A stretch of DNA of 64,000 nucleotides from a virus, in the IMG/VR virus record IMGVR_UViG_3300033512_000452, positions 1-64,000 of that record. The stretch is one strand, 5' to 3'. A program made the translations under genes and the position numbers. The notes beneath the pieces were generated by a model. That model was not told the origin of the DNA and did no database searches. It saw only the letters and a list, made by a program, of their open reading frames with translations. Below, piece by piece: positions 34,050-55,578 of this stretch. Every line of letters begins with the position of its first letter. The stretch's first letter is position 1.

Positions 34050-34505
34050 ATGAACAGTTATATTTCGCTTGATCACGGAGCTGGTTATATAGGAATGGAA
34101 GATGATAGTATTGTTTCTTTAGAAGATGAAACAATGCTTGTTTCGCAGGATTATTCTCTTGGCTTTTTTTCAACGCCAATGAAAAATTGGGATCCAATAA
34201 TTGTGCGCCCTGCGTCAGTTAAATACACACTCAATGGAGAAGCCTATTCTGTGTATGGGTATGGAAGCAATAAGGAATGGGATGGCTTTATTATTGCTGG
34301 TGTAGCTGAAACAGACGAGCTTTCAAGTGTGGACACTTTACGCGAATTACTTTCCGTTAATGATAATATTCGTTTTACTGACCATTACGGAAACGAGTAT
34401 ACCGTTGTTTCTATTGGGCCATTTCAAGAAAAGCATCTACTGTCTGATTGGGAAAATAAAAATAATCGCGTCTTTATCAAAACAAGACTTGTTGAGGTTA
34501 AATAA
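34050..34505 (+). CDS. distal tail protein candidate
   Basis: ATG at 34050 after GAGGT. 151 aa directly after the tape-measure-position ORF. Confidence 0.5.
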   Translation: MNSYISLDHGAGYIGMEDDSIVSLEDETMLVSQDYSLGFFSTPMKNWDPIIVRPASVKYTLNGEAYSVYGYGSNKEWDGFIIAGVAETDELSSVDTLRELLSVNDNIRFTDHYGNEYTVVSIGPFQEKHLLSDWENKNNRVFIKTRLVEVK

Positions 34506-37500: not shown

Positions 37501-39040
37501 GATAATAGAGCTTTGTGCCAAAGCTGGCGTTTCGTGCAGTTCGAAGAAATTAATAAACAAATCCGTATTGATAGGGACGCCGTGGGATATTTACATTCCA
37601 GAAAGCTCTGTTTTTTGCAATTACGAATCATTCAACGCTGACGATAATATTATTGTCGTTGATGATTACTCTGATCTCCCTTCGTCTGGGGTTGCGGAGA
37701 TAGATGACGAGAATATTTATTACGGACAAAAATCAACACAAGAAAGGACTTTGTTCGAATCTTTTTTTGTTGAAAGTATTGGTGATATAGCATCTGGCAA
37801 TTTATCCTTAACAGGCCGACGTGTTTACTTAAAAGATTTTGACGCTGCGTCCGTAACTGTTTCACTGAAAGTTATTGTTGTGTCTGGAAAGGGATCTGGG
37901 CGCTCGTTTAATGTGTCTAATATTCCAGACACGTCAACTGATTCGTTTATTGAATTTAACGAAAACACGTCAAGTATACTCGATACAACCTCTAAAATAT
38001 CATTCGTGGTCACTGATAACACATTGGTAAATATCATTAGAGGCTACCAGGGCACTCGCCCAGCCACACACGAGAGTGGTACTATGTATATTCAGGTGAG
38101 CGAAAGTGGTCTTGTTAATGATGTTACAATTCGCAACAAGCGTAATTTTATAGTTGATTTAGAATACTTATTTGTTGGAGAGGAGGAGGTTGGTGTCTAT
38201 GGTTTGTCTTATGGAGATCAAGCTGTCATACTCACAGTGAACAGCAGTGGGGTTAGGTATTATAGCTACATTAACGGCGAAAAAACACTTATCGAACAAT
38301 TTCCATATCCATCTTCTGGCGGAAAAATAAAGATATCTTTATTTGAGGATACAATATCTATTTGGGTGAATAAGAAATTCGTTCATTCGTTTTATGTATC
38401 AGATAATCACTACACAGAGGTAAAGGAAAACGAATACTGCATGGGTCTAATTTCATCAGAGTCTGTTTCTGTTTTTTACTCTATTGACGAAATCAGCAAC
38501 AGGGTCGATAACTGCATTCTTGATATTGGACAGACCGGGGATCAAATTCTTACGTCTATTATTGGAGAGAAAAAAGTTTACACAAAAACAGCAGAAAATG
38601 GAGCTCTTGAAGTGTTTTTATCCAGAGACGAGATTGCTGAGGAGATAGAGGGATCTTTTGAGTTTGCTGAATCGTGGTCTGACGCTAACAGTTTCTCTCG
38701 TTTACGCGTTGAAGGGATTTCCTTTTGCGAGCGTTATGATGAATTTTTAATGCGTAATTACGGGAACACTTTTAGATTATTAAACTCCAACGAATCAAAC
38801 GAAGAGTACGAGATAATTAGTTTTGCTGATTTAGAGTTAAATGATATTGGTTCGAATGTTAAACTTGTGCGAATGCTTGGGTTTGCCGATCCAAGAGTTG
38901 AAGTGCACGATAAAATAAACACAACTAAAGGCCAAATACTTGTTGATTCAATTTCTTACTCATTTAACACAACGGAGCAAGATGTAACATTTGAATTTGA
39001 TATATCCGGCAGGGTTCCGAGAGAAAACATAGGTGAATAA
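34505..39040 (+). CDS. large tail tip / host-recognition protein (1511 aa)
   Basis: Position after the Dit-like gene; size fits. No motif recognised. Confidence 0.6.
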   Translation: MRNSSYKFSKSQKTKSKITIDDPLLRFSGFSINDYVVSNDGYYGYDSSSFDDTLLRIATVNSCTTRQLFYSYCDNLPGLSPWVNSDITVSFNSIPGLFGNRIFWQTADGKVHSAIITESGITDQVEIFTQSQELAIAPISETEFYAQYVTGVSKRVFYYNTATDVKHEWCGSLFAEKHSIKSFDAERVNDIDYVFTTDANGNRAVCLEVDVAGFSTPEWAEQYYVIPIDVVDVDSFFNPHFASVLNGNLFLTGHLARPASKGMLIYTKGPTWSLGKEMFIGFPANTYQTGKLHIIGDEVWYLGVDLLYKATATSYVGVDKSFEIDDFYDVRISKSANTADTISLIVKNADNIRPGMTLKFDGVINDKEYNYGIFDIDSINKQTNRDGQEIVLYGRSFPHKRLSQWVSDSSLDYWSQTKHNAMATDISKSIRKAGEWVTYDSGTDNENLRLRSIGDSIMYVSAKSSKNSTMAAKFKKLSTTATDYDGVSYGVGVNYYEETVLDAAERLDREIEDVDEDDQKYYGILALWGVKEHNGSEGISVYLVKKDAQTYITSVALSVPNQTDHWISIKWIDGHIFVYYRLDSSEEWLSIIDYLYDLEESPYITDTDQSGRGFVFGRVSEQSVSTTLFQDITFDASTIPVTSHQNFPDTGTIKIDDESIPYTSKGTLTETTTKYLSPAIIYRPDLAPTTTQWIWNKSDTANVTYTTHRVTPDLTANNSVLYGGINYYKTKITYPFDYSGKNLNVSIYLSKLSNVGSNLLFSAQDDSGNILANGSAKYVITTSIISAIHPSYSWVNFKIPGFTSDSAWFSVSNTEISIPYVAGSPTIYYFISTVNLSGNAPYTYGGPTYYRYYADTPGTNRVLSNTAINFKIELPTPGTQYYRLYLGNGYTSVNYMNDNLVVTSGTGIGRVFTNVGSGYNYVLVLEDTSTIDNTSSLKFFSQTTRSLNVFYVNRQSNSSIHLAGASVSLVENLTVESCPFSVTDTRYYSSEKDITVSDMIIELCAKAGVSCSSKKLINKSVLIGTPWDIYIPESSVFCNYESFNADDNIIVVDDYSDLPSSGVAEIDDENIYYGQKSTQERTLFESFFVESIGDIASGNLSLTGRRVYLKDFDAASVTVSLKVIVVSGKGSGRSFNVSNIPDTSTDSFIEFNENTSSILDTTSKISFVVTDNTLVNIIRGYQGTRPATHESGTMYIQVSESGLVNDVTIRNKRNFIVDLEYLFVGEEEVGVYGLSYGDQAVILTVNSSGVRYYSYINGEKTLIEQFPYPSSGGKIKISLFEDTISIWVNKKFVHSFYVSDNHYTEVKENEYCMGLISSESVSVFYSIDEISNRVDNCILDIGQTGDQILTSIIGEKKVYTKTAENGALEVFLSRDEIAEEIEGSFEFAESWSDANSFSRLRVEGISFCERYDEFLMRNYGNTFRLLNSNESNEEYEIISFADLELNDIGSNVKLVRMLGFADPRVEVHDKINTTKGQILVDSISYSFNTTEQDVTFEFDISGRVPRENIGE

Positions 39041-39781: not shown

Positions 39782-41608
39782 TTACATTTCTCCTTCCAAT
39801 TTATGGAATTCGCAAATAATGTTTGCGATTTCATTCCCGGGATAACCTTCATCATCAACGCTCACCGTCATGGAGTTCTTCCCTCCAGTCGGCTTACTGA
39901 AGATGTGGTGGCGATCTTTCGCTTCATATCTGTATCCTCCGACAATCATTGGCTGGAAAAGCGCCGTTCGCTTCCCTTCCGTGCCGGATACAAGGTGAAT
40001 GATCTCGTCAAATCCTTTCGGGAAGGTGTCTTTAAACCCACCTTGCAACGAGAACGTTTTGTATCCAGGTTTTGTATCATCGCCTTCTGTCTGTTTGATG
40101 TGGGAGATGACAACGACATGCACTGGCAGCGCCATCCATTGCAGAACGATTGGATAGACGACATTAAAGAGATCTCCCCATTCCTGGACCGTCATGCGGG
40201 TTTTCCCTTTTAGGACCCCATAGAACTTCTCATTCTCTTGGAATTGGTCAATACTGTCGATGATGACAGTTTTTACGGGGATAACCTTCTTTTCACCCTT
40301 GTAGTCGATGTGGTACATCAAAGACCCGTTCTCGAGTTTGGAGTTGTTCAACTCGGCTAACTTTTGGCTGAGAACACTCTTGGTGTTTGCTGAAGGTTCG
40401 ATTGTGATCCGGTTTGCCCTAGCCGATCCCGATCCTTTTTCGAGATCTAAAAAGAGCGGATCTGGCATCGTAGCAGAGAGCCGAGTGTTGTGCGTTACGA
40501 TATAGTTGTCTGTAACATATAACTGGTTTTCAGAATCCAGCATGATGCACTGCGCCTCTTTTTGGCCTATCTTTTCTATTGATTTGATGTAACGATATGG
40601 AGGATATTTTGATCCAGGGTTGTATTTGTCAGCTTTTCTCTGGAGCCTGAACGGGCTCACATCTCTAGGCAAGGATACAGTGATTCTATAAGACTCCCTG
40701 CAAGGAATTCTTATGCTATTTTTTATATAACTAGAAGATCTTTTTACAACCTTTGCCACTCCTCCAATTGACTGAATCAACTCAATAACATCTTCGGAAA
40801 GCAACCTAGACGAAGTTGAAAATTCAACGTTTGCTTTTGATGGATACCCATCTGTGTCAAATAAGCCCTGTAGAATCGCCACTCGGTTGTTAAATGTTGA
40901 GTATTTATATTTATGAGGAATGAATTTTTCGTGACTGTATAATCCCCACAAACTCAAATCCTCCAGCATCACCTTGACTGGATTTGGATGCGATGTTCTG
41001 TTCTCTTTTCTAATCGAAAAGTTGCAACCTTGAATATTTTTAACAATTATTCCATCTGGGACGTTACGTCGCAAATGATCGATTAATTCAGTATCCGATT
41101 TACTAAACATTGGCGTATTACGTGTAAATCCACCATCCCCAAGCAAAAGACCGAGTGTGTACGGATCAATATCCAATGTTTCTTGTTGGTCGAAGTCGAA
41201 TTTTTTTATCATCGGGACGAATTGAAATCTATTCCTAGATAAAGTATCCATTTTTGAAAGAATCTCCGACGTGCTCCTTACAGACCATCCTCTCTTATTT
41301 TGTCGTTGGTCGTGATGTTGAACAGTCCATAAGTGTTCTGCGCAAGCCTCTGTGCTAAACCGATCATTGAAGTTGATCTTATAAATTTCCTTCTTCCCCT
41401 GCGGGAATACTCCAACAATAGTTGCTTTACCTCCGTCTGGATTAATTACTTTATCTCCTACTTTCGCATCTCCCATTCTCATCCAACCATCAGGGGTAAG
41501 AATTTTTGATTCAAGGCTTTGAGCCTTACCGGCGCCAGGTGCGCCAAGTATGCAAATTCTAGCCGGTCCATAATTCGGCTTTTCTGCGTCTGGAAAATAA
41601 AAAGTCAT
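39782..41608 (-). CDS. Sak4-like (AAA_24/RecA-fold) recombination ATPase interrupted by an intein
   Basis: Joining the exteins gives ICILGAPGAGK|TRLSATMPDPLFLDLEKG, which restores the Walker A GxxGxGKT. VIIDSIDQF is Walker B-like. Confidence 0.8.
   Translation of the reverse strand: MTFYFPDAEKPNYGPARICILGAPGAGKAQSLESKILTPDGWMRMGDAKVGDKVINPDGGKATIVGVFPQGKKEIYKINFNDRFSTEACAEHLWTVQHHDQRQNKRGWSVRSTSEILSKMDTLSRNRFQFVPMIKKFDFDQQETLDIDPYTLGLLLGDGGFTRNTPMFSKSDTELIDHLRRNVPDGIIVKNIQGCNFSIRKENRTSHPNPVKVMLEDLSLWGLYSHEKFIPHKYKYSTFNNRVAILQGLFDTDGYPSKANVEFSTSSRLLSEDVIELIQSIGGVAKVVKRSSSYIKNSIRIPCRESYRITVSLPRDVSPFRLQRKADKYNPGSKYPPYRYIKSIEKIGQKEAQCIMLDSENQLYVTDNYIVTHNTRLSATMPDPLFLDLEKGSGSARANRITIEPSANTKSVLSQKLAELNNSKLENGSLMYHIDYKGEKKVIPVKTVIIDSIDQFQENEKFYGVLKGKTRMTVQEWGDLFNVVYPIVLQWMALPVHVVVISHIKQTEGDDTKPGYKTFSLQGGFKDTFPKGFDEIIHLVSGTEGKRTALFQPMIVGGYRYEAKDRHHIFSKPTGGKNSMTVSVDDEGYPGNEIANIICEFHKLEGEM
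40487..41524 (-). mobile_element. intein (346 aa) with LAGLIDADG homing-endonuclease domain; class-3-like (WCT) features
   Basis: Starts AQSLESKILTPDGW and ends YIVTHN, followed by Thr as the +1 residue. Two LAGLIDADG motifs (LGLLLGDGGF, LQGLFDTDGY). Block B EHLW, block F Cys (AQCIMLD), and Thr before HN. Confidence 0.8.
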
Positions 41609-46509: not shown

Positions 46510-46800
46510 TTACTTCAAAAGGCGTTTGTTGAATGGTGGTATGTTTGGCCGTTCTTGTGTGTAACTTTTTCCATCTAAGGCGTAAGTGATCCACTGTTCG
46601 CCTTCGAAATCACCACCAAGTTCGAATAACACTCCGGGATGTTTCGCGCTGAATGACGCCATGGATACTTCTTCGTCACTGAAATGCTCTTCGCAGCAGC
46701 CGATAAGCGCTCCAACTGAGATGTATTTTTCGACTTCTTCGTTTTCGTCAACCGTTCCGTTGTTTTCAAATTTTAAATAATAATAAGGTCTTGAGCTCAA
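46510..46800 (-). CDS. hypothetical protein
   Basis: ORF track entry. Confidence 0.6.
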   Translation of the reverse strand: MSSRPYYYLKFENNGTVDENEEVEKYISVGALIGCCEEHFSDEEVSMASFSAKHPGVLFELGGDFEGEQWITYALDGKSYTQERPNIPPFNKRLLK

Positions 46801-47381
46801 TTTATCCCTTCCTTTTCTTTGATTTTGTTGATTTTATCCTGGTAGCGCCAAAACCACTTCTCTCGAAATGCGCTTGGGATCATGTAGGCTGGGAAGTCGT
46901 CTTTGGTGTATTGTCCATTGTAGCGATCTTGAGCGTCCAGCATATCGGTTGCGTGAAACCCAAACTGAGCAAAAGTATTTCCGATCGTAAGGCTTGCCGC
47001 ATAACTCGTAAATGCGCTAAGTTCTCCAGTCCAGTGATTAACATACCCGACGTCCCCTAAACCGGCGCATTTACACACACCGATTCCCATTCGCCCAATC
47101 GTACTGCGGGCTTTCATTTCCGCAACGACGCCGTTCACGCAGCCGATAATTTCCTTCGTCACGCAAAGCATGGTTGAATTTGGCGAGATAGAAACATCCT
47201 CTCCGTCCTTGTAATACTCCGGCTCCGAGTAGGTTAACTTTCCATCATGCCAACAAACGCCGACAAACCAATTCCCCAGGCGAACATCGTAACTGTTCGG
47301 GTTGAGTTGTTCTTCATTGAATGGCTCAATAACGATCAATCCTTTTTTTATGTACTCTCTGATACTTGTTTTCCCTAACAT
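46797..47381 (-). CDS. dcd: dCTP deaminase family protein
   Basis: Start at the ATG at 47381 after AGGAGA. MLGKTSIREYIKKGLIVIEPFNEEQLNPNSYDVRLG is a classic Dcd N-terminus. AEMKARSTIGRMGI also present. Confidence 0.8.
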   Translation of the reverse strand: MLGKTSIREYIKKGLIVIEPFNEEQLNPNSYDVRLGNWFVGVCWHDGKLTYSEPEYYKDGEDVSISPNSTMLCVTKEIIGCVNGVVAEMKARSTIGRMGIGVCKCAGLGDVGYVNHWTGELSAFTSYAASLTIGNTFAQFGFHATDMLDAQDRYNGQYTKDDFPAYMIPSAFREKWFWRYQDKINKIKEKEGIN

Positions 47382-47481
47382 AGATCTCCTTGAAAATGTA
47401 ATAAAAATTGCCAGTAACAATCACCTTATTTATTGTATCACGTTAGTTACTTTTTAACGAACAGGCGAATCTTAAAACTTT

Positions 47482-47755
47482 TGAGTGTGATTTGAGTGTG
47501 AATTGGTATAAAACGTATGCGAAACGTGTGTTTTGTAGACGATTAAGCACAAGATATTGTGCTGTAACACGTTTGGGACACCATATATGGGGTACTAACG
47601 AATTTCCGTTAGACTGTGGATCAAGTGGTTGCGGGTTCGATCCCCGTCATCCACCCCAAATATGGGGGTATAATTGAAGAAAGTGACCTGTATATAGGAT
47701 TTTGGGGTAAAATAGAAAGGATGTTCTACGGTTTGAGTGTGAATTGAGTGTGAAT
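47482..47755 (+). other. candidate attP: arm-type 11-mer repeats flanking a tRNA-His 3' half
   Basis: TGAGTGTGATT and TGAGTGTGAAT at 47482-47503; TGAGTGTGAAT twice at 47734-47755, in the same orientation. The tRNA-like core lies between them. ATATGGGG(G)TA direct repeats at 47585 and 47660. Confidence 0.6.
47609..47658 (+). other. 3' half of a tRNA-His-like sequence (anticodon arm to CCA); not a complete tRNA
   Basis: TTAGA-CTGTGGA-TCAAG (anticodon GTG, G37); variable TGGTT; T-arm GCGGG-TTCGATC-CCCGT; acceptor 3' strand CATCCAC; discriminator C; encoded CCA. No matching 5' acceptor strand or D-arm upstream. Confidence 0.65.
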
Positions 47756-47799
47756 TGAAAAAACACCTTTCAAACTTCCCCCGCTTTCTTAAATGCCAT

Positions 47800-48063
47800 T
47801 TAAGGATCATTTCTAAAATACCCCAAAAATGCAAAGGTTATTGCGCCGATAAGTTGCCCATAGATGTTGACAGTCCTTTTAAAGTCCGGCGGTGTGCCAT
47901 CGGCGTGAACGTACTGGATTCTGTAACCCTGTTTAACCGCCTCCTTTTCAAGGCTCGCTAAATCCTCTTTGGTATCCCCTTCGCCGAGGAATTTTCCGTA
48001 GGGATCATCGTCCGTGTATCCATACAGCGCCCAGGACGGTTTAAATTGGTTATTCATATTCAC
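47800..48063 (-). CDS. hypothetical protein with C-terminal hydrophobic segment
   Basis: ORF track entry. Confidence 0.6.
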   Translation of the reverse strand: MNMNNQFKPSWALYGYTDDDPYGKFLGEGDTKEDLASLEKEAVKQGYRIQYVHADGTPPDFKRTVNIYGQLIGAITFAFLGYFRNDP

Positions 48064-48073
48064 TCCTCCTTTT

Positions 48074-48385
48074 TTATCTCATCGAAAGTTCTTCGACGAT
48101 ATACCCGTCTACGACTGCTCCGAAATCGTAGACGGGATTTTCGGTTAACTGGTCAACCCAGATCGTATCGTTGTCCAGACGCACTATGGCGCCGCCGTGG
48201 TCTTTGCAGATCCACATCTGTTTCCCGATCCATATTTTTGTTTCGAATGGAATGTCCTGCGGGCAGGCGATTGCTCTGTCAACCCATTCCTGCCAGCGCT
48301 CCCCGTTGCTCATCCTGGAGATACATTCTCCGTTCACAAAGTTGGAGCAATTCGTTCCACCGAGCCACGGTTCGTAGTGCGACAC
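48074..48385 (-). CDS. hypothetical protein; possible 3D/DPBB-like (cell-wall-active) fold
   Basis: The segment AIACPQDIPFETKIWIGKQMWICKDHGGAIV...IWVD is weakly reminiscent of 3D-domain proteins. Confidence 0.5.
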   Translation of the reverse strand: MSHYEPWLGGTNCSNFVNGECISRMSNGERWQEWVDRAIACPQDIPFETKIWIGKQMWICKDHGGAIVRLDNDTIWVDQLTENPVYDFGAVVDGYIVEELSMR

Positions 48386-48426
48386 TTTTACTTTGACGGT
48401 CTGGACAAGACGCAGTTTAGCCCTAT

Positions 48427-48660
48427 CTAGTTCTGGGTCAATTCCTGAGAGGGCGGCTGAGGGAAATTATTGGACCCATCATTCATTACAACAGTGGCGT
48501 TCAGAATGAGATCCACTGCCCCATCCCCGTTAATGTCGGCGAATACGTTCTGCACGCTTTCACGCTCCGGTGTGGCCACGTAGAAGATCGATGCGGTGAC
48601 GGTGACGATGAGGATGACAACTGCGATCATAACAATTAAACTCTTTTTTTCTTTAGACAT
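48427..48660 (-). CDS. signal-anchored small protein with DxNxDGxxD calcium-binding-like motif
   Basis: Start at the ATG at 48660 after AAGGAG. MSKEKKSLIVMIAVVILIVTVTASIF...ADINGDGAVDLI. Confidence 0.55.
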   Translation of the reverse strand: MSKEKKSLIVMIAVVILIVTVTASIFYVATPERESVQNVFADINGDGAVDLILNATVVMNDGSNNFPQPPSQELTQN

Positions 48661-48676
48661 TTTTTGCTCCTTTAAA

Positions 48677-48903
48677 TTATATGATTCCATCGAAGGGGAC
48701 GAGTCCGCACCCTTCGCCGTACATGTAGATCTGTGGGTCTGTTCCACCTCTACCGTTACTGAATTGGTAGAAGTCGGTTGTTCCATCGTTGTGGTGCCAG
48801 ACAGCGTCAGTGTCTATGCTGTGGTTGACGATGCCCCAAGAAACCGCCCCTGGGCTGTCCTCTTTGAAAGTGGCTGCGCTTGCCGCAGTTATTGGTATGA
48901 CCA
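48677..48903 (-). CDS. hypothetical protein (75 aa)
   Basis: Start at the ATG at 48903 after AAGGAGGAAUAAAAC. Confidence 0.55.
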
Positions 48904-48935
48904 TTGTTTTATTCCTCCTTGTTAATGTTTTATTT

Positions 48936-48980
48936 AAAAAGGCGCGGCGGGACTCGAACCCGCCTGCTGCCATCTCGCCT
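48936..48980 (-). terminator. tRNA-like minihelix (acceptor-like stem + T-arm) followed by a U-run
   Basis: Minus-strand RNA: AGGCGAG-AUGGCAGCAG-GCGGG-UUCGAGU-CCCGC-CGCGCCU-UUUUU. Confidence 0.55.
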
Positions 48981-48984
48981 ATTT

Positions 48985-49872
48985 TTATCCTGTACCTGAT
49001 CCAATCATTCCCTTGTTAACCAGACGTTCTTCCTGGCGTGAAACGTAGTCAGCAACGTAATCGTTAAACTCGTTGGATACTACCGCTGGATTCGTTGCGG
49101 GTTTGTAGTAGAACTTTTTAGGGAATTTATCCTTCTTGCCTTTCTTCCCGTAAGTGAGGTAGTTAAACGATAAATCCTCAATGACCCCAAGATCGTCCTG
49201 GAAATCGTAGCGTTCAGCGTTTTTCAAAGATAGGATCTTATCTACTTTCTCTATCGTCTTACTGAGTTCTTCTGTTTTGATGTATTCTTGGCAGGTGTGC
49301 TCATTGTAATAACCCACTGAGAGGTTCACGGAAGCAAGATCGAATGCTGGTGACAATATGGATATGTCTGAAAACGTTCCGTGATTTAATTTAAATCCGT
49401 TGCCGAGAATGAAGTCTTGAAACTCTTTATTTCCGCAATCGTAGAACACAGCGTCGTCTTTTCCGTGCCGGTCCAACTGGATCATATAGTTCACCGTTGG
49501 GCCTCCTGGGAAATCAGCGACAAACGCAGACGCTCCATAACCTCCGCTTTCTTCGTAGTCCGTGAAAAGAATGTGCGGTCGGTGTTTCTTGAGCAACTTC
49601 AGGATTGCGTAAACACCGCACCTGTCATCGCCGCCAATTCCCTCCGGGGACCAAAGCACGCCCTCTTCCTGGTCGTGATAGATCTTTTCCGGTTTGGTGT
49701 CGTGGACAGTATCCACGTGAGCCACCAGCATGACTGGCAGCGTTCCTGGGGCGTACACATAATCCTCGAAGTTGTATACGGTCTTGTATCCGTAGGTCAC
49801 TTCGAGTGTTTTCGCCAAAGTGTTTTTAAGATGAAACTCGTTCATCATCAGCATTTCTTTGAATACCTTCAT
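48985..49872 (-). CDS. zinc metallopeptidase, M20/M28/M42-like
   Basis: Start at the ATG at 49872. VAHVDTVH, GGDDRCGV, DYEESGG, TFSDIS and YNEHT occur in the order of co-catalytic zinc peptidases. Confidence 0.65.
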   Translation of the reverse strand: MKVFKEMLMMNEFHLKNTLAKTLEVTYGYKTVYNFEDYVYAPGTLPVMLVAHVDTVHDTKPEKIYHDQEEGVLWSPEGIGGDDRCGVYAILKLLKKHRPHILFTDYEESGGYGASAFVADFPGGPTVNYMIQLDRHGKDDAVFYDCGNKEFQDFILGNGFKLNHGTFSDISILSPAFDLASVNLSVGYYNEHTCQEYIKTEELSKTIEKVDKILSLKNAERYDFQDDLGVIEDLSFNYLTYGKKGKKDKFPKKFYYKPATNPAVVSNEFNDYVADYVSRQEERLVNKGMIGSGTG

Positions 49873-49873
49873 G

Positions 49874-51274
49874 TTAATAGTCACAATCATCACCCTCTTC
49901 CTCTTTCTCTCTGCAATACTTACACAGAAACGAATCATCATTCTCGTTGATATCATCACCGCATTTTAAGCAAGTGATGTCATCGCCGACCATGAATTTA
50001 TTGTCATCTGTTTTGAAATTCTTGTTCACAATTAAATGATGGTCGTAACCTTCATTGCAATCATGGTATAAACAAGTGGAATACGCCTCGTATCCATCGA
50101 CAGGGTCTGTACCACTCGACACTACCCATTTGTTTTGTACACCGGCGTACTCGGAAACCCTCTCTTCGAGCATCTCCCTGGCGACTCTTGATACGTTATC
50201 AATTTTAGTTGGATACTGCCGACTGAAAATCGCAGCCGATGTGTTTTTATCGAAGTAAACGCACTGCCGCCAGCTCTTGCTGTTCCCGCTGAACTTCACG
50301 TTTTTATCGTGATAATCAACGTCATTCGCACCGCTCTTGAAGGCGATTAAGGTAGCGTCGTCAACCATCGCAGATAACGCCCCCGTGGCGTAGCAGCCTT
50401 CTCCGATTTTGTGGCAGGATGACCAGTCGTAAGCGTTGTACGACATCGTCAGGTAATCGTAAGGGTCAATCGAGATGGAAACATTAGCGTTGACACTCCT
50501 GTTTGATAAAGTCAACGAAACAGCGTCATCAAAGGCTTTGTCGTTTAACAGGTTAGACAAGAACTTGCTCAACTTCATTTCTCTGTTGAACATCGCGCCG
50601 CAAAATTTCTCAAAATGAGAGTTCGAAAAGCACTGATTTAATTGCCAGCTTTCAGTAGTGAACGCTGTAATAATGGTGGAGTATTGCGGGAACAGATAGC
50701 ATAACTCGATAATTTTTGTTCGCATTGAGGTTCCGTCTATTGCAATATCAACGCCTTTTCTGATTGATAACTCTTTCCCGAACATGAGATAAAACTCGTA
50801 CTTCGAGCGCGCCCATCTCGTTAGGTATCTGTCAACTACGTTATTACTGAGATCCTTCATTCCGAAACCATCGTAATTAGCGCCGATAACCATGAGCTTT
50901 TTAAGTCGAGTTTTATCGACTCTGGAGATCATTTCATCTAAGAGGCCCTCGTTTGCTGACGCATTTATCGAAAGGTATTCCATGACACCGTCATCTTCTG
51001 GTGTAATTTCCGTTTGAGCGTTGGCAAATTCCAGCATATCCAACGAGATGTTGTAGTATTCTTTGTTGAATATACATTCATAGCCTACGTTAATTCTGTC
51101 CATCATGCTTTCGTCAACGACTACGGTATCGCCACAGAATTGCTCCATTGAATCAGACCATCCGCAGCGGACTGAACTGTGGCGCAGTACGTAAGGGTTG
51201 CGAAACCTGAGGACGTCTCCGATCTTAATGCCCTCAAGGCGATGTGGGATGCCAGTAGATGAATTATTTTCCAT
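49874..51274 (-). CDS. hypothetical 466-aa protein with C-terminal zinc ribbon
   Basis: Start at the ATG at 51274 after AGGAGGAAAC. CLKCGDD...CKYC. Its stop abuts the peptidase start (TAACATG). Confidence 0.65.
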   Translation of the reverse strand: MENNSSTGIPHRLEGIKIGDVLRFRNPYVLRHSSVRCGWSDSMEQFCGDTVVVDESMMDRINVGYECIFNKEYYNISLDMLEFANAQTEITPEDDGVMEYLSINASANEGLLDEMISRVDKTRLKKLMVIGANYDGFGMKDLSNNVVDRYLTRWARSKYEFYLMFGKELSIRKGVDIAIDGTSMRTKIIELCYLFPQYSTIITAFTTESWQLNQCFSNSHFEKFCGAMFNREMKLSKFLSNLLNDKAFDDAVSLTLSNRSVNANVSISIDPYDYLTMSYNAYDWSSCHKIGEGCYATGALSAMVDDATLIAFKSGANDVDYHDKNVKFSGNSKSWRQCVYFDKNTSAAIFSRQYPTKIDNVSRVAREMLEERVSEYAGVQNKWVVSSGTDPVDGYEAYSTCLYHDCNEGYDHHLIVNKNFKTDDNKFMVGDDITCLKCGDDINENDDSFLCKYCREKEEEGDDCDY

Positions 51275-51314
51275 ATTCGTTTCCTCCTGATTATTTTTAA
51301 TAATTACATTCTTG

Positions 51315-51330
51315 TTTCCGGCGCCGGAAA
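51315..51330. repeat. exact copy of the 16-bp palindrome
   Basis: Lies between the int terminator and the gene starting at 51274. Confidence 0.95.
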
Positions 51331-51354
51331 TCATTCCTCACGGCTCCTCAAATA

Positions 51355-51380
51355 AAAAGACCGCTTGGAAGCGGTCTTTT
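51355..51380 (-). terminator. rho-independent terminator after int
   Basis: AAAAGACCGC-TTGGAA-GCGGTCTTTT. Confidence 0.8.
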
Positions 51381-51385
51381 CCAGG

Positions 51386-52516
51386 TTACTCAACAGGTAT
51401 TCTTTTTAGGAATTCGAATTCAACAGGCGTGACCAATTCAGTCATCTTGCGAGTTAAATCGTCCTGTCCTGTGGCGATCAGATGACCATAGATGTCCATT
51501 GTGATACTTGGCTTTGAGTGTCCAAGCGTTCTGGAGATCGTGGTAATTGATGCGCCGGTATTGATCATGTGAGACGCTGCGGTATGGCGAAGATCATGGA
51601 AGCGGATCTTCTTAACCATCGCTGTTTTTAATTCTTCCTTGAATTCAGCAAGCAGAGCGGAGTGGTCCATTGGCGTTCCGATCGTTGTGCAGAACACCAA
51701 ACCAAAATCTTTCCACCTGTTTGCAAAGAAAGCCTTTTCGTAATTCTGGCGTTCTTTATGCTCCCTTAGGATTTGAATCGTCTGCTCCAGTATCCTTATG
51801 GTTCTGATTCCAGATTTTGTTTTCGGCGCCACGAAGGATTGCAATCCATGTTCTAATTGGCGCTGAATTAAAATCGTCCCTCTCTTGAAGTTGATATCAG
51901 TCCACATCAGACCTAACAACTCACCCTGCCTCATACCGGTTAATATCGCCAGGTGATAAAGCGCCTTGTTGCGAGATTCTTTGGTTGAGATAAGGAATTG
52001 CATAATCTCATCTTCTTCGAGGATGTTCATTTCGCCGTGCTCGTAAGAGGGCTTATCCACGTAATTTGTTGGATTAATAGGAATAAGCCCTCTTTTCGTG
52101 GCGTCCTCCAGGCAGATATGCAGAACTTGATGGATATACTTTCTCGTGCGAGCTCCGACTTCCAGTGAGTCGTAATAATCTGATATTGTGTCTATTTTCA
52201 ATTCAGACAGTTTGTAACCACCGATATCCGGCACGATATAATCATCGACGTAATGCTGGTATGATTTTGCTGTGCTTTCTCTGATCGCCTGCCTGTGGGC
52301 TTTCATCCATGACGCGGCGAATTCAGCTAAGGTAATCTTTGACGTATTAAAGGTTAATCCTCTGACCTGCTGCCCTTTAATTTCTTTGAGCCAATTGCGA
52401 GCGTCCGTTCTCGTCTCGAAAACCTTCGTTATCCTTGCGCCGTCAATGTATATCTGTGCCCTGAACATATCGCGCTGTTTGAAAATTGATCCTTCCCCTT
52501 CGTTCTTCTGTCTCAT
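51386..52516 (-). CDS. int: tyrosine recombinase / phage integrase
   Basis: C-terminal RFHDLRHTAASHMI...LGHSKPSITMDIYGHL gives R, HxxR, H and Y. N-terminal SAM-like domain. Confidence 0.9.
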   Translation of the reverse strand: MRQKNEGEGSIFKQRDMFRAQIYIDGARITKVFETRTDARNWLKEIKGQQVRGLTFNTSKITLAEFAASWMKAHRQAIRESTAKSYQHYVDDYIVPDIGGYKLSELKIDTISDYYDSLEVGARTRKYIHQVLHICLEDATKRGLIPINPTNYVDKPSYEHGEMNILEEDEIMQFLISTKESRNKALYHLAILTGMRQGELLGLMWTDINFKRGTILIQRQLEHGLQSFVAPKTKSGIRTIRILEQTIQILREHKERQNYEKAFFANRWKDFGLVFCTTIGTPMDHSALLAEFKEELKTAMVKKIRFHDLRHTAASHMINTGASITTISRTLGHSKPSITMDIYGHLIATGQDDLTRKMTELVTPVEFEFLKRIPVE

Positions 52517-52704
52517 TGGGCAAGCTGGTCTTCAAGATACTTCTTGAAAGTGTAATCCGGGACCCGGATTGCAACGCCCAACTTCACACAGGGAAGTTCT
52601 CCGCTTCTGATGATCTTGTAGATCATTGCTTCCGATGCGTTCAGTATCTTAGCGATCTCCTGGACGGTCAGGAATTTTGGATATTCGGTGGTTGCTTCAG
52701 TCAT
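52513..52704 (-). CDS. xis: excisionase-type HTH protein
   Basis: LTVQEIAKILNASEAMIYKIIRSGELPCVKLG fits the MerR/excisionase HTH_17 pattern. Overlaps int. Confidence 0.75.
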   Translation of the reverse strand: MTEATTEYPKFLTVQEIAKILNASEAMIYKIIRSGELPCVKLGVAIRVPDYTFKKYLEDQLAQ

Positions 52705-52993: not shown

Positions 52994-53503
52994 TTAATTG
53001 TCGAACACAAAGACGGTATGCTCGGAGCTGTGAACAAAAGTGACATCGCCGTTGTATTCCCAATCACTCGCCATCTTATCGTAGTCGATGTAGTCTTCGA
53101 GGTGTTTTGGGATTTCATCGCCAGTCTCTTTGGTGAATTCTTCCGCGTAGTCCTCTTTTGAAGGATACTCTCCACGATAAGAATCGTCGAAACCATCCAG
53201 CGTGGCGTAATGATCACCAACAACTCCTACGTAAGTGGCGAAGGCTTCTTCGTGTTTATTTATTCCAGCCGTAAGCATAGCGAGATGCTCAATGTCGATG
53301 TACTGATCAATCTTGAGATCGTAGTATCCTTCCGTGTCGCCGACGTAATACTCTTCGTTTTCGGGGAGCAATACAGATTTGATTGCCTCTTGTATTTCAT
53401 CGATCAGATCATCTTCGGATTCGCCGTCGAACTCGAACCATTCTCCAGTGAGGTTGCCGGAATTGTATTCAGCAAGATCTCCGATCCAAACTTTTGTTGT
53501 CAT
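52994..53503 (-). CDS. ardA: antirestriction protein ArdA
   Basis: MTTKVWIGDLAEYNSGNLTGEWFEF and LEDYIDYDKMASDW...VFVF match the conserved N- and C-terminal ArdA signatures. Very acidic. Confidence 0.85.
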   Translation of the reverse strand: MTTKVWIGDLAEYNSGNLTGEWFEFDGESEDDLIDEIQEAIKSVLLPENEEYYVGDTEGYYDLKIDQYIDIEHLAMLTAGINKHEEAFATYVGVVGDHYATLDGFDDSYRGEYPSKEDYAEEFTKETGDEIPKHLEDYIDYDKMASDWEYNGDVTFVHSSEHTVFVFDN

Positions 53504-53805
53504 TGATCCTCTTCCTCCCAATAGAATTTGATATCGTCAAGAAGTTTTGGTTTCTCATTCTTGACTTTGTGGATATGGATTTTCACTAGAATCTCTCTGC
53601 AAGCCGCTTCCCCGATAGAGAGTCTCTTCGGGAGATAACCGTGTTTCTTTATAAGCCGGTTATTCATGTTCGTGATCAGCGCTTTTGTTTGACTGTCAAT
53701 TTGCTTCTTCTCATCATCTGGAAGGTTTTTGTACGTTTCCTCGATGGATTTATTGAGAAGTTTTGCTTGCTCAGGGTTGGACGGCTGGTAGATTTTTCTT
53801 CTCAT
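53500..53805 (-). CDS. hypothetical protein
   Basis: ORF track entry. Confidence 0.6.
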   Translation of the reverse strand: MRRKIYQPSNPEQAKLLNKSIEETYKNLPDDEKKQIDSQTKALITNMNNRLIKKHGYLPKRLSIGEAACREILVKIHIHKVKNEKPKLLDDIKFYWEEEDQ

Positions 53806-54674: not shown

Positions 54675-54940
54675 CTCACTTCTCCTGCGAAATCTTTACC
54701 TTCCTCCAGGTAGGCTTTGATCACCTCTTGATTTCCTTCGAGGTAAACGTCAATACTCCCTTTACCGGTTAAGATGACCGCGTCAGGCTCTCTCCAGTCT
54801 TCTTCAAGCGGGCAATCTGGATCGATCCCACTCCAACCGATACTTAGCGCTGTCAATGCGCATGATAAATCGTAGGTTGTTCCATTCTTGCGGCGCCAGG
54901 GACAGGCTTTACATTCATTAACGACAATCTTTTTGCTCAT
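54671..54940 (-). CDS. hypothetical Cys-rich protein
   Basis: ORF track entry. Confidence 0.55.
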   Translation of the reverse strand: MSKKIVVNECKACPWRRKNGTTYDLSCALTALSIGWSGIDPDCPLEEDWREPDAVILTGKGSIDVYLEGNQEVIKAYLEEGKDFAGEVR

Positions 54941-55578
54941 GGTTTGTCCTTGATAATAAATTCTGGGTGTTTAACGAATGTCTGGATAGCAGATACGAAC
55001 GCTTTCCACTCGTTCATCTTGTGGTGCTCTCGCTGTTTTACGATGTTTTGTAGGGCGAGATAAGAAAGTTTTAATACTCGAGTTTGCAGGAAGGATTCTG
55101 GAAGATCTTTTTTCAGCCGCTTTAGAATATCATCTCGATCTATTTGATCTTCTAATTGACTTGCTGCCGTAATCAGATCATTGAGGTATTCAAGGTATGA
55201 CTCCCGCACTGGAATTGCAAAGTCACTCTGGGTCAGTGTTGACTTGAGGATCGTGTGCATCGTGGATTCCGAGAGCATAGGGGCGTCATCTACGTCCACG
55301 ACGCCGACATGATAGGTATTGAACTGCTGCCATGCGTCTCGAGAGACGGTAATTTCCCACCAGGTGTCAATGAGTTTGAGGAACCCGTTGTGCCCCAGAC
55401 CGGCGTGAGCGAGTTTGCGCGCCCTGGCGACCATGGCTGCGTAATGCGGCTCCTCTCCAAACCTGCTCCAACTGAATCGATCTGTTATTGAAAAGGATTT
55501 GCTGATCCCGTAGAGCGCCTGATCATATCCTGCTTCTCCGATAAACTCGAAAACGTATTTTGGTTGATAACTAATCAT
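54937..55578 (-). CDS. ThyX-like (flavin-dependent thymidylate synthase fold) protein with non-canonical motifs
   Basis: GHNGFLKLIDTWWEITVSRDAWQQFNTYHVG...SESTMH parallels the ThyX segment GHE..FEH..F.F.......RQ..RHR....E.S.RY. The RHR and SxRY motifs are substituted. Confidence 0.5.
   Translation of the reverse strand: MISYQPKYVFEFIGEAGYDQALYGISKSFSITDRFSWSRFGEEPHYAAMVARARKLAHAGLGHNGFLKLIDTWWEITVSRDAWQQFNTYHVGVVDVDDAPMLSESTMHTILKSTLTQSDFAIPVRESYLEYLNDLITAASQLEDQIDRDDILKRLKKDLPESFLQTRVLKLSYLALQNIVKQREHHKMNEWKAFVSAIQTFVKHPEFIIKDKP

What the first reader, a model, noticed from the sequence alone, without database searches (positions are those of the whole stretch)
47800..51334. Cargo (moron-like) block between the putative attP and int, including a coupled 466-aa unknown + M20/M28-like peptidase pair
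Six minus-strand genes occupy the classic lysogenic-conversion or defense slot:
- four small secreted or membrane-type proteins, one with a DxNxDGxxD motif and one possibly 3D/DPBB-like
- after a tRNA-like terminator, a 466-aa protein with a C-terminal zinc ribbon whose stop abuts the start of a co-catalytic zinc-peptidase-like protein (TAACATG)

The pair is preceded by an exact palindrome copy. I do not recognise this two-gene architecture as a described defense or conversion system. The segment ISIDPYDYLTMS...WSSCH reminds me vaguely of PcfJ-like proteins, with low confidence.
Basis: inference. Interest (0 to 1): 0.65.

Follow-up and report, generated by a model that had tools for sequence, protein, structure and literature searches.

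The report
Conserved phage unknown-protein plus zinc-peptidase pair
The two large genes next to the integrase are a tightly coupled pair, a new-fold protein and a stripped-down zinc peptidase, that recurs in many phages including strictly lytic ones, so it is a widespread phage module of untested function and not prophage-specific cargo.

Summary
Six minus-strand genes lie between a well-formed attP and a tyrosine integrase. A 466-aa protein (g1) ends one base before the start of a 295-aa M28-type peptidase (g2).

- g1 and g2 form their own terminator-bracketed unit, so the layout is moron-like.
- The pair is not specific to prophage cargo slots. All 80 IMG/VR loci fetched with the peptidase carry a g1-family gene on the same strand, and 76 have it within 100 bp.
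- Virulent 138-142 kb Enterococcus phages carry g1-g2-g1.
- Integrases are almost never nearby.
- No PADLOC, Pfam or NCBIfam family matches g1.
- The PcfJ idea fails every test, although true PcfJ proteins sit beside the cassette in two loci.

g1 belongs to a large family (4,312 representatives at 50% identity). Its confident AlphaFold model has no PDB neighbour. g2 keeps all di-zinc ligands but lacks the PepT lid domain.

Best guess: a cytoplasmic two-protein exopeptidase in which g1 supplies the targeting, used during infection for host takeover or counter-defence. This is inferred, not shown. The four small genes are lineage-specific extras.

The parts
49874..51274 (-). g1: 466-aa phage-specific protein. 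It has a small N-terminal beta domain, a helical domain, an alpha/beta core carrying the SIDPYDYLT...W-S-C-H, GNSKSWRQ and SRQYP motifs, and a C-terminal zinc ribbon.
   Evidence: ORF and RBS. Matches phrog_18912, unknown function, 1.1e-18. No Pfam, PADLOC or NCBIfam hit. 4,312 representatives at E<=1e-3. AlphaFold2 pLDDT 91.1. No PDB neighbour.
48985..49872 (-). g2: 295-aa single-domain MH-clan (M28-type) di-zinc peptidase. Its start codon lies 1 nt after the g1 stop.
   Evidence: Peptidase_M28 5.6e-5, above the gathering score. phrog_34186 5.9e-50. Invariant H52, D54, D82/D83, E107/E108, D134 and H192. Nearest solved relative is the PepT-like 3rza at 6e-17, but the roughly 150-aa lid domain is missing.
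51315..51330 (.). 16-bp perfect palindrome TTTCCGGCGCCGGAAA between the int terminator and the g1 RBS. It is one copy of a genome-wide dispersed motif and a possible operator.
   Evidence: 6 exact and 4 near copies against 0.02 expected. Only the core is conserved.
51351..51380 (-). Intrinsic-terminator-like hairpin plus T-run after int. It separates int from the g1-g2 unit.
   Evidence: Read from the sequence aaaagaccgcttccaagcggtcttttt. The same hairpin aligns to the terminator stem of Rfam's Trp_leader model, below threshold.
48946..48964 (-). T-arm-like terminator hairpin (GGCGGG TTCGAGT CCCGCC plus GCGCCTTTTT) that ends the g1-g2 unit.
   Evidence: Terminator scan.
47800..48904 (-). Four small lineage-specific genes. 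g3 is 75 aa. g4 is 77 aa with a TM helix and DINGDGAVD. g5 is about 79-103 aa with an uncertain start. g6 is 85 aa with a C-terminal hydrophobic tail. They are not part of the conserved pair.
   Evidence: ORFs and RBSs. No homologues in 57 related loci at E<=1e-3. No confident family hits.
47481..47757 (+). attP. It has a tRNA-His-like 3' part (about 47608-47659, anticodon loop to CCA) flanked by two direct 25-bp doublets that look like arm-type integrase sites.
   Evidence: Sequence. Repeats. The doublets occur only twice in the window, against 0 expected.
51386..52516 (-). Tyrosine integrase. It is context for the finding, not part of the conserved pair.
   Evidence: Phage_integrase 8.7e-28 and phrog_1 1.1e-73.

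Best explanation
g1 and g2 form a self-contained two-gene phage operon that recurs across many tailed phages.

g2 is a catalytically intact cytoplasmic di-zinc exopeptidase of the M28/M20 clan. It has been reduced to the bare catalytic domain and has no lid or dimerisation domain.

g1 is a phage-only protein with a previously unseen fold and a C-terminal zinc ribbon. It is made in step with g2 by translational coupling. It most likely binds g2 and supplies the substrate recognition that the missing lid would otherwise give. The extra g1 paralogues seen in many phages would then be alternative adaptors for one catalytic subunit.

The module most likely acts inside the infected cell during the lytic programme, on a host protein or peptide, for host takeover or counter-defence. 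It is unlikely to be a lysogenic-conversion or defence gene.

In this phage the pair has landed in the int-attP accessory slot together with four unrelated small genes.

What is shown:
- the conserved pairing
- the intact metal site
- the missing lid
- the new fold
- the presence in virulent phages

What is inferred:
- complex formation
- the adaptor role
- the cellular target
- the timing of expression
For: **Pairing**
- 50 of 57 loci fetched with g1 carry a g2 homologue on the same strand within 6 kb.
- All 80 loci fetched with g2 carry a g1-family ORF on the same strand. 76 have it within 100 bp. 45 have one copy, 33 have two and 2 have three.
- These loci span 68 peptidase clusters at 70% identity.
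- The g1 stop and g2 start overlap in 29 of 77 pairs. They lie 40 nt or less apart in 21 more. In the window the gap is 1 nt.

**Not tied to lysogeny**
- The virulent Enterococcus phages VRE9_3 and EF1 carry phrog_18912, phrog_34186, phrog_18912 in that order, near the anaerobic ribonucleotide reductase.
- 40-kb temperate siphophage contigs also carry the pair, placed after the lysis genes.

**g2 looks active**
- All metal ligands and the catalytic Glu are invariant.
- The lid domain is absent.
- Neither protein has a signal peptide or TM segment.

**g1 is new**
- The model is confident with no PDB neighbour. The best hit has E 0.19 and probability <=0.06.
- Its only structural relatives are uncharacterised phage proteins.

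**Neighbourhoods look like accessory or anti-defence regions**
- An ArdA-like protein lies in the window at 52994-53521.
- Related loci carry DUF932 and DNA methylases.
- Others carry PcfJ, Thg1, RlaP and a sigma factor.
Against: - No experiment, expression data or complex prediction supports a g1-g2 interaction.
- No g1-g2 fusion was found in 80 loci.
- Some g1 homologues lack an adjacent close g2. In L054 the 2.2 kb downstream of g1 has no g2. In L003-L005 and L007 there is only a distant 30% relative, 2-4 kb upstream.
- More distant peptidase relatives in Bacillus, Lactococcus and Thermus phages have no detectable g1 neighbour.
- g1 carries invariant polar residues (K158, S268, D273, S286, C287, N331, K333, R336, D405). 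This pattern would also suit an enzyme better than a passive adaptor.
- The neighbouring genes vary widely: 426 clusters among 567 neighbours. The anti-defence context is therefore only suggestive.
- The only public run holding this sequence is a DNA metagenome, so expression is unknown.
Confidence: 0.4

Rival explanations
1. Two-step enzymatic pathway on a non-protein substrate. g1 would be a new transferase, ligase or hydrolase. g2 would be an M20-style amidohydrolase that removes or trims an amino-acid or acyl group on a nucleotide, tRNA, DNA base or cell-envelope precursor.
For: - g1 has a cluster of invariant charged and polar residues and an invariant Cys, which is typical of an active site.
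- The M20 clan includes many deacylases. Weak NCBIfam hits go to the dapE/LysW-type deacetylases.
- Neighbours in various loci include Thg1, RlaP, RNA ligase, thymidylate synthase, a ThyX-like protein, a THF dehydrogenase and an S51 dipeptidase.
- The window phage has a dCTP deaminase and a ThyX-like gene nearby.
Against: - g1 shows no similarity in sequence or fold to any known transferase or ligase.
- The neighbouring nucleotide and RNA genes are not consistently linked to the pair.
- The best sequence relatives of g2 are tripeptidases, not deacylases.
Confidence: 0.2
2. Peptide-salvage auxiliary gene. g2 would simply raise intracellular peptidase capacity to free amino acids for virion synthesis. 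g1 would be an unrelated or regulatory co-transcribed gene.
For: - g2 is closest to PepT-like tripeptidases.
- One clade of related phages also encodes an S51 (dipeptidase E / cyanophycinase-type) peptidase about 1 kb away.
Against: - It does not explain the near-obligate, translationally coupled pairing with g1.
- It does not explain the g1 paralogue expansion.
- It does not explain the loss of the lid domain that confers small-peptide specificity.
- Hosts already encode abundant peptidases.
Confidence: 0.13
3. One reading: a prophage-expressed lysogenic-conversion or anti-phage defence pair sitting in the int-attP cargo slot.
For: - The pair lies between int and attP and has its own terminators, with a palindromic possible operator upstream.
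- One 40-kb relative has the pair next to a serine recombinase.
- An ArdA-like gene and an excisionase-like gene are close by.
Against: - The pair is present in virulent Enterococcus phages.
- Most of the 137 related loci show no integrase nearby.
- There is no PADLOC hit.
- The GC content of the pair (0.44-0.45) matches the rest of the window.
Confidence: 0.12
4. g1 is a divergent PcfJ-family protein.
For: - The motif order looks loosely similar: a strand, then x-C-x, then several strands. In g1 this is SIDPYD...SCH. In pCF10 PcfJ it is LRHCVG.
- Genuine PcfJ proteins neighbour the cassette in L079 and L089.
Against: - No PF14284 hit in any of 42 family members at E<=1, nor in 10 longer members.
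- hhalign of the family profile against pCF10 PcfJ gives probability 0.08%.
- The g1 HMM does not hit the true PcfJ neighbours.
- The two families occur side by side as separate genes.
Confidence: 0.04

Closest known systems
PHROG families phrog_18912 (g1) and phrog_34186 / phrog_4191 (g2), as annotated in Enterococcus phages VRE9_3, EF1 and EF5
   Same: These are direct homologues (1.1e-18 and 5.9e-50). They lie in the same order and on the same strand, with an extra g1 paralogue.
   Different: The families are only catalogued as 'unknown function' or 'peptidase'. The literature searches found no description of the pairing, the fold or any function. The window proteins are only 27% and 41% identical to the Enterococcus phage ones.
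PepT-like tripeptidases (M20B, PDB 3rza, 3gb0, 1fno) and single-domain M28 aminopeptidases (Vibrio/Aeromonas aminopeptidase, 1amp)
   Same: g2 has the same co-catalytic site: the His-x-Asp motif, a bridging Asp, the Glu-Glu pair, an Asp and a C-terminal His. The Pfam M28 hit is above threshold.
   Different: g2 lacks the roughly 150-aa lid/dimerisation domain of PepT. Unlike the secreted M28 aminopeptidases it has no signal peptide. It carries a poorly conserved basic tail of about 65 aa, and it is always encoded next to g1.
The 577-aa unknown protein plus 'putative peptidase' pair of KP34/PhiM1-type Autographiviridae (PhiM1_09 / PhiM1_10)
   Same: The layout matches: a large unknown protein whose gene overlaps the start of an MH-clan peptidase gene, placed in the early region before the primase. 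The peptidase is a detectable homologue of g2. One BFVD protein, A0A823AEG0, is a structural neighbour of both the g1 model (1.4e-5) and the PhiM1_09-type model (1.9e-6).
   Different: No sequence homology to g1 is detectable. The g1 HMMs miss it and hhalign gives probability 0.26%. The structural bridge rests on one protein and low TM-scores.
PcfJ (PF14284) of pCF10 and conjugative elements
   Same: Its function is likewise unknown. It sits in accessory or anti-defence neighbourhoods, next to an AcrIIA9-family gene on pCF10. It occurs beside the cassette in two phage loci.
   Different: It is a different family by every test run.
ArdC-type anti-restriction proteins (binding domain plus metalloprotease). 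This comparison rests on established knowledge, not on a test here.
   Same: The concept is similar: a metallopeptidase activity is joined to a separate recognition module and encoded in a mobile-element accessory region. pCF10 carries an ArdC-like gene.
   Different: ArdC is a single fused polypeptide with a different protease fold. No sequence or fold similarity was found, so this is an analogy only.

Membership tests
MH-clan co-catalytic metallopeptidase (M28/M20/M42), for g2 | Significant match to a family profile | tested here: met
   Peptidase_M28 scores 23.4 bits against a gathering score of 21.3, E 5.6e-5. The family profile hits the PepT-like 3rza at 6.1e-17.
MH-clan co-catalytic metallopeptidase (M28/M20/M42), for g2 | Five metal ligands (His, bridging Asp, Glu, Asp, His) plus a catalytic Glu | tested here: met
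   H52(/D54), D82/D83, E107/E108, D134 and H192 are invariant in 34 sequences that include distant phage homologues. The assignment of each residue to a ligand role is by analogy.
M20 subfamily (PepT, DapE, CPG2), for g2 | Lid/dimerisation domain inserted between the Glu-Glu motif and the last His | tested here: not met
   Profile positions 133 to 167 correspond to chain residues 185 to 340 of 3rza, so about 150 residues are absent. The architecture is single-domain and M28-like.
MH-clan peptidase, for g2 | Peptidase or amidohydrolase activity | not testable with these tools
   This needs an enzyme assay.
PcfJ-like (PF14284), for g1 | Match to the Pfam PcfJ profile | tested here: not met
   No hit at E<=1 in 42 family members, in g1 itself or in 10 longer members. 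The same library did find PcfJ in a neighbouring gene at 1.3e-27.
PcfJ-like (PF14284), for g1 | Profile similarity to pCF10 PcfJ | tested here: not met
   hhalign probability 0.08%. The g1 HMM against true PcfJ neighbours gives E 0.064 and 2.
Known anti-phage defence systems (PADLOC-DB v2) | Any component model matching any of the six proteins | tested here: not met
   No family at E<=0.1 for all six proteins.
Moron (autonomous accessory transcription unit in a prophage) | Own terminator and a separate unit between neighbouring genes | tested here: met
   An int terminator lies upstream and a hairpin plus T-run at 48964-48946 lies downstream. No promoter was predicted by the sigma-70 scan.
Moron (autonomous accessory transcription unit in a prophage) | Base composition different from the surrounding genome | tested here: not met
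   The GC content of the g1-g2 region is 0.44-0.45, against a mean of about 0.44 over the 64 one-kb bins. Only the small-gene kilobase is higher, at 0.49.
Moron (autonomous accessory transcription unit in a prophage) | Expressed from the repressed prophage | not testable with these tools
   Only one DNA metagenome run holds the sequence.
Tyrosine-integrase / tRNA attP integration module (context) | A Tyr recombinase plus an attP with a tRNA 3' fragment and arm-type repeats | tested here: met
   Phage_integrase 8.7e-28. A tRNA-like 3' part ends in CCA. Flanking 25-bp doublets are unique to this site. ARAGORN calls no full tRNA here, as expected for a fragment.
3D / DPBB domain (PF06725), for g5 | Match to the family profile | tested here: not met
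   No Pfam or NCBIfam hit at E<=0.1. The only hit is phrog_6631, unknown function, 4.4e-5. The resemblance of 'KDHGGAIV...WVD' to the 3D motif is from memory only.
FG-GAP / calcium-binding loop, for g4 | The DxNxDGxxD loop and a profile match | tested here: inconclusive
   The motif DINGDGAVD is present. FG-GAP_3 scores E 0.0073 and 17.3 bits, below the 26.9 cut-off.

The most novel reading that the evidence does not exclude
g1 and its structural relatives, including the KP34/PhiM1-type early proteins, would form a large, undescribed phage-specific superfamily with a new fold. Its members would work as interchangeable targeting subunits for a lid-less di-zinc peptidase. Together they would form a new class of phage-encoded two-component protease that disables specific host proteins, for example immune sensors or effectors, early in infection.
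Probability: 0.2. Interest if true: 0.85.

Novelty: new variant of a known kind. Interest (0 to 1): 0.55.

Why it matters
The g1 family is large. It has 4,312 representatives at 50% identity, and 2,212 of them score below 1e-30. It has no Pfam, NCBIfam or PDB counterpart, it gives a confident new-fold model, and its closest peptidase relatives are nearly always encoded directly beside it. Such pairs are good entry points into the unannotated majority of phage genes.

If g1 directs a minimal aminopeptidase to particular host targets, that would be a new way for phages to take over or disarm cells. The g1 paralogues would then form a natural library of specificities.

The cassette occurs in cultured, virulent Enterococcus phages, so the question can be tested directly in the laboratory.

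For genome annotation, the result warns against reading genes in the int-attP slot as lysogeny functions without checking where their relatives sit.

Tried and rejected
1. **PcfJ membership of g1.** Rejected by Pfam, by hhalign against pCF10 PcfJ and by HMM against true PcfJ neighbours.
2. **Known defence system.** PADLOC was negative for all six proteins.
3. **Sequence link to solved structures for g1.** phmmer and a profile search of PDB gave only noise, with a best E of 0.026 and 0.46.
4. **Fold link to PDB.**
   - Nothing scored below E 0.19.
   - Several peptide-deformylase chains appear at E 2-4 with probability <=0.02 and rmsd of 9-11 Å.
   - I considered a deformylase plus aminopeptidase N-terminal-processing idea. 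I dropped it as unsupported.
5. **Sequence homology between g1 and the KP34/PhiM1 upstream protein.**
   - It was not detected.
   - Only a one-protein structural bridge exists.
   - The 1,112-aa neighbour of a peptidase homologue in L061 is also unrelated by hhalign.
6. **g1-g2 fusions.** None in 80 loci.
7. **Near-identical phage genomes.** megablast of 47400-52600 against 50,697 phage records found nothing. The plasmid collection gave one weak hit.
8. **Expression data.** Only one DNA metagenome run, from a microbial mat, holds the sequence.
9. **Rfam scan of 47300-51500.** Only sub-threshold chance matches. The tRNA fragment is too short to score.
10. **Literature.** Searches for M28 with anti-defence, for PcfJ-like, for the KP34 peptidase and for phage aminopeptidases found no functional study.
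11. **Conserved neighbours c2-c5 of the gut-phage clades.** No Pfam, PHROG or NCBIfam annotation.

Full report
**1. What is in the window**

The window is a tailed-phage genome segment.
- Plus-strand structural genes run from about 9.8 to 39 kb and include ORFs of 3,597 and 1,511 aa.
- A minus-strand block from about 39.7 to 64 kb carries replication and accessory genes: a DnaB-like helicase, a primase, an ArdA-like anti-restriction protein and an excisionase-like HTH protein.
- A tyrosine integrase lies at 52516..51386.
- One public run, a microbial-mat DNA metagenome, holds the sequence.
- The peptidase is on record on a 75,232-bp contig.

In the flagged interval the six minus-strand ORFs exist as described.

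| Gene | Coordinates | Length | Notes |
|---|---|---|---|
| g1 | 51274..49874 | 466 aa | AGGAGG RBS; homologues start at the same Met |
| g2 | 49872..48985 | 295 aa | starts 1 nt after the g1 stop |
| g3 | 48904..48677 | 75 aa | |
| g4 | 48660..48427 | 77 aa | TM helix and DINGDGAVD |
| g5 | 48385..48074 | 103 aa | GTG start with no RBS, so the start is uncertain |
| g6 | 48057..47800 | 85 aa | |

The g1/g2 junction reads TAA-C-ATG.

In the direction of transcription the order is as follows:
1. int
2. a terminator hairpin at about 51380-51351
3. the 16-bp palindrome at 51330-51315
4. g1 and g2
5. the T-arm-like terminator at 48964-48946
6. g3 to g6
7. attP

The attP call is well supported.
- A tRNA-like 3' part at about 47608-47659 runs from the anticodon loop to CCA, with anticodon GTG.
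- Two direct copies of a 25-bp doublet flank it. These doublets occur nowhere else in the window.

One correction: the 'tRNA-like terminator' closes the g1-g2 unit and does not precede it.

**2. The pair is a conserved phage cassette and is not slot-specific cargo**

Starting from g1:
- A word-indexed search found 45 unnamed metagenomic homologues.
- An exhaustive profile search found 4,312 representatives (one per cluster at 50% identity) at E<=1e-3, and 2,212 at E<=1e-30.
- 57 loci were fetched with g1. They come from IMG/VR contigs of 13-402 kb, four MAG contigs and two metagenome contigs.
- 50 of the 57 encode a g2 homologue on the same strand within 6 kb, often with two or three g1 paralogues.

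Starting from g2:
- All 80 IMG/VR loci fetched with the peptidase alignment (39-56% identity to g2) carry a g1-family ORF on the same strand.
- In 76 of them it lies within 100 bp. Copy number is one in 45 loci, two in 33 and three in 2.
- The loci span 68 peptidase clusters at 70% identity.
- The g1 stop and g2 start overlap in 29 of 77 pairs, and lie 40 nt or less apart in another 21.
- No fusion protein was found.

Phage lifestyle:
- The cassette is present in cultured virulent Enterococcus phages of 134-142 kb (VRE9_1-4, EF1, EF5, H1).
- There it reads phrog_18912, phrog_34186, phrog_18912, with a further distant paralogue upstream, near the anaerobic ribonucleotide reductase.
- It also occurs in 40-kb temperate siphophage contigs after the lysis genes, once beside a serine recombinase.

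Integrase linkage:
- No homologue of the window's integrase lies within 6 kb of g1 in any of the first 57 loci.
- Only one of 75 neighbour proteins scanned against Pfam is an integrase.

But the distribution contradicts a lysogeny-specific role. The four small genes have no homologues in the related loci. They appear to be lineage-specific.

**3. What the two proteins are**

g2:
- It matches Peptidase_M28 above Pfam's gathering score.
- As a family profile it matches PepT-like tripeptidases best: 3rza at 6.1e-17 and 3gb0 at 7e-15.
- In an alignment that includes distant homologues from Enterococcus, Pectobacterium, Thermus, Lactococcus and Bacillus phages, H52, D54, D82, D83, E107, E108, D134 and H192 are invariant. 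This is the complete co-catalytic metal-site signature.
- The roughly 150-residue lid/dimerisation domain of PepT is absent.
- g2 is therefore a bare catalytic domain with an open active site. It has no signal peptide and a poorly conserved basic C-terminal tail.

g1:
- It has no hit in Pfam, in any of 42 members or 10 longer members.
- It has no hit in NCBIfam or PADLOC.
- It has no hit among PDB sequences.
- Its AlphaFold2 model is confident, with pLDDT 91.1 and pTM 0.74.
- The model shows a small N-terminal beta domain, a helical domain, an alpha/beta core and a zinc ribbon.
- It has no PDB structural neighbour. The best hit has E 0.19 and probability <=0.06.
- In BFVD it matches only uncharacterised phage proteins, such as Enterococcus phage paralogues at 8e-15 and Dickeya jumbo phage JA29 at 8e-5.
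- The invariant residues are K158, S268, D273, T276, W284, S286, C287, N331, K333, R336, Y354, P355 and D405.

**4. The PcfJ idea**

It fails each test.
- No PF14284 hit.
- hhalign against pCF10 PcfJ gives probability 0.08%.
- The g1 HMM does not score true PcfJ proteins.

True PcfJ-domain proteins are, however, encoded directly beside the cassette in two loci: L079 upstream and L089 downstream (PF14284 at 1.3e-27 and phmmer at about 1e-22). On pCF10, PcfJ sits next to an AcrIIA9-family gene. It does point to the same type of accessory neighbourhood.

**5. A possibly wider pattern**

- In KP34/PhiM1-type Autographiviridae, a 577-aa unknown protein overlaps the start of a g2-related 'putative peptidase' in the early region before the primase.
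- That protein is not detectably homologous to g1 by HMM or hhalign.
- One BFVD protein, A0A823AEG0, is a significant structural neighbour of both models: 1.4e-5 and 1.9e-6. I treat this as a lead only.
- More distant peptidase relatives in Bacillus (Tsamsa-like), Lactococcus (P087) and Thermus (P23-45) phages sit in early or accessory regions. In Tsamsa this is near an ocr-like gene. In P087 it is near a methyltransferase and an RNA ligase.
- None of these has a detectable g1 neighbour.

**6. Most likely mechanism**

Five facts are shown:
- The two genes are tightly coupled and their order is conserved.
- The hydrolase is intact but has no lid.
- The partner is found only in phages and has its own conserved surface or site.
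- Many phages carry several partner paralogues for one peptidase.
- The pair occurs in both virulent and temperate phages, in variable accessory regions.

The explanation that fits these best is a cytoplasmic two-protein exopeptidase. g1 would bind g2 and provide substrate selection. The module would be used during infection against a host protein or peptide, for takeover or counter-defence. The interaction, the target and the timing are all inferred. I give this reading 0.4.

The rivals are:

| Rival | Confidence |
|---|---|
| A two-enzyme pathway on a non-protein substrate, suggested by the invariant polar residues of g1 and the deacylase members of the M20 clan | 0.2 |
| Simple peptide salvage | 0.13 |
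| PcfJ membership | 0.04 |

**7. Novelty and verdict**

Both families are already catalogued in PHROGs, as 'unknown function' and 'peptidase'. The sequences themselves are therefore not new. I found no description of the obligate pairing, the lid-less peptidase, the size of the family or the apparently new fold of g1.

I rate the finding a new variant of a known kind: a phage accessory peptidase module. It keeps a 0.2 chance of being a truly new type of phage effector system. My interest score is 0.55. It is still worthwhile, because the cassette is widespread, cleanly defined and testable in cultured Enterococcus phages.

Noticed in passing
window 493, 6660, 13970, 19892, 26436, 41802, 45431, 51315, 56957, 60534 (16 bp each): The perfect palindrome TTTCCGGCGCCGGAAA occurs 6 times exactly and 4 times with 1-2 mismatches, against 0.02 expected. 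Most neighbouring copies are 3.6-7.3 kb apart, with one 15.4-kb gap. Copies lie both inside ORFs and between genes, and only the core (plus a flanking T) is conserved. It looks like a dispersed protein-binding site and not a promoter element specific to g1.
   Followed up: partly
window 47481-47505 and 47733-47757, flanking 47608-47659: Two direct copies of a 25-bp doublet (TTGAGTGTGAWTTGAGTGTGAATTG) flank a tRNA-His-like 3' fragment. This is a textbook attP with arm-type sites and suggests integration into a host tRNA-His gene.
   Followed up: partly
window 48946-48964 (- strand): The g2 terminator hairpin has the form of a tRNA T-arm (GGCGGG TTCGAGT CCCGCC). It could be a relic of a tRNA 3' end, for example an old attachment site, or it could be coincidence.
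   Followed up: no
window 52994-53521 (-) and 52513-52704 (-): An ArdA-like anti-restriction protein (phrog_2059, 2.3e-28) and an excisionase-like HTH protein lie just upstream of int. The int region is therefore an accessory or anti-defence hotspot.
   Followed up: partly
window 54937-55578 (-) and 46797-47420 (-): A divergent ThyX-like protein (phrog_6721; a homologue in L018 hits Pfam Thy1 weakly at 4.8e-4) and a dCTP deaminase are present. Together they hint at altered pyrimidine metabolism or DNA modification in this phage. phrog_6721 homologues also recur near the cassette in the gut-phage clade L012-L023.
   Followed up: no
window 23177-33970 (+) and 34505-39040 (+): There are giant ORFs of 3,597 and 1,511 aa in the structural module. 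These are unusually large for a genome of at least 75 kb and are probably tail, fibre or ejection proteins.
   Followed up: no
L079 4523-6532 and L089 9339-11462: Bona fide PcfJ-domain proteins of 669 and 707 aa are encoded immediately next to the g1-g2 cassette in two unrelated IMG/VR phage contigs.
   Followed up: yes
L012-L023 (e.g. L021 9602-10273): One clade of 54-120 kb phage contigs also encodes an S51 (dipeptidase E / cyanophycinase-type) peptidase about 1 kb downstream of the M28-like peptidase, plus a second g1 paralogue.
   Followed up: partly
L061 8001-12078: A close g2 homologue (the 251-aa P0133, 50% identity) lies on a bacterial-looking contig that also carries SUF and Rrf2 genes. 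It is followed by an overlapping 1,112-aa unknown protein that is not related to g1 by HMM or hhalign. This may be a non-phage version of 'peptidase plus large partner'.
   Followed up: partly
window 39782-41608 (-): A 608-aa protein has mixed PHROG hits (large terminase, DnaC-like loader, primase, Sak4-like). It is probably a P-loop ATPase fusion at the start of the replication block.
   Followed up: no
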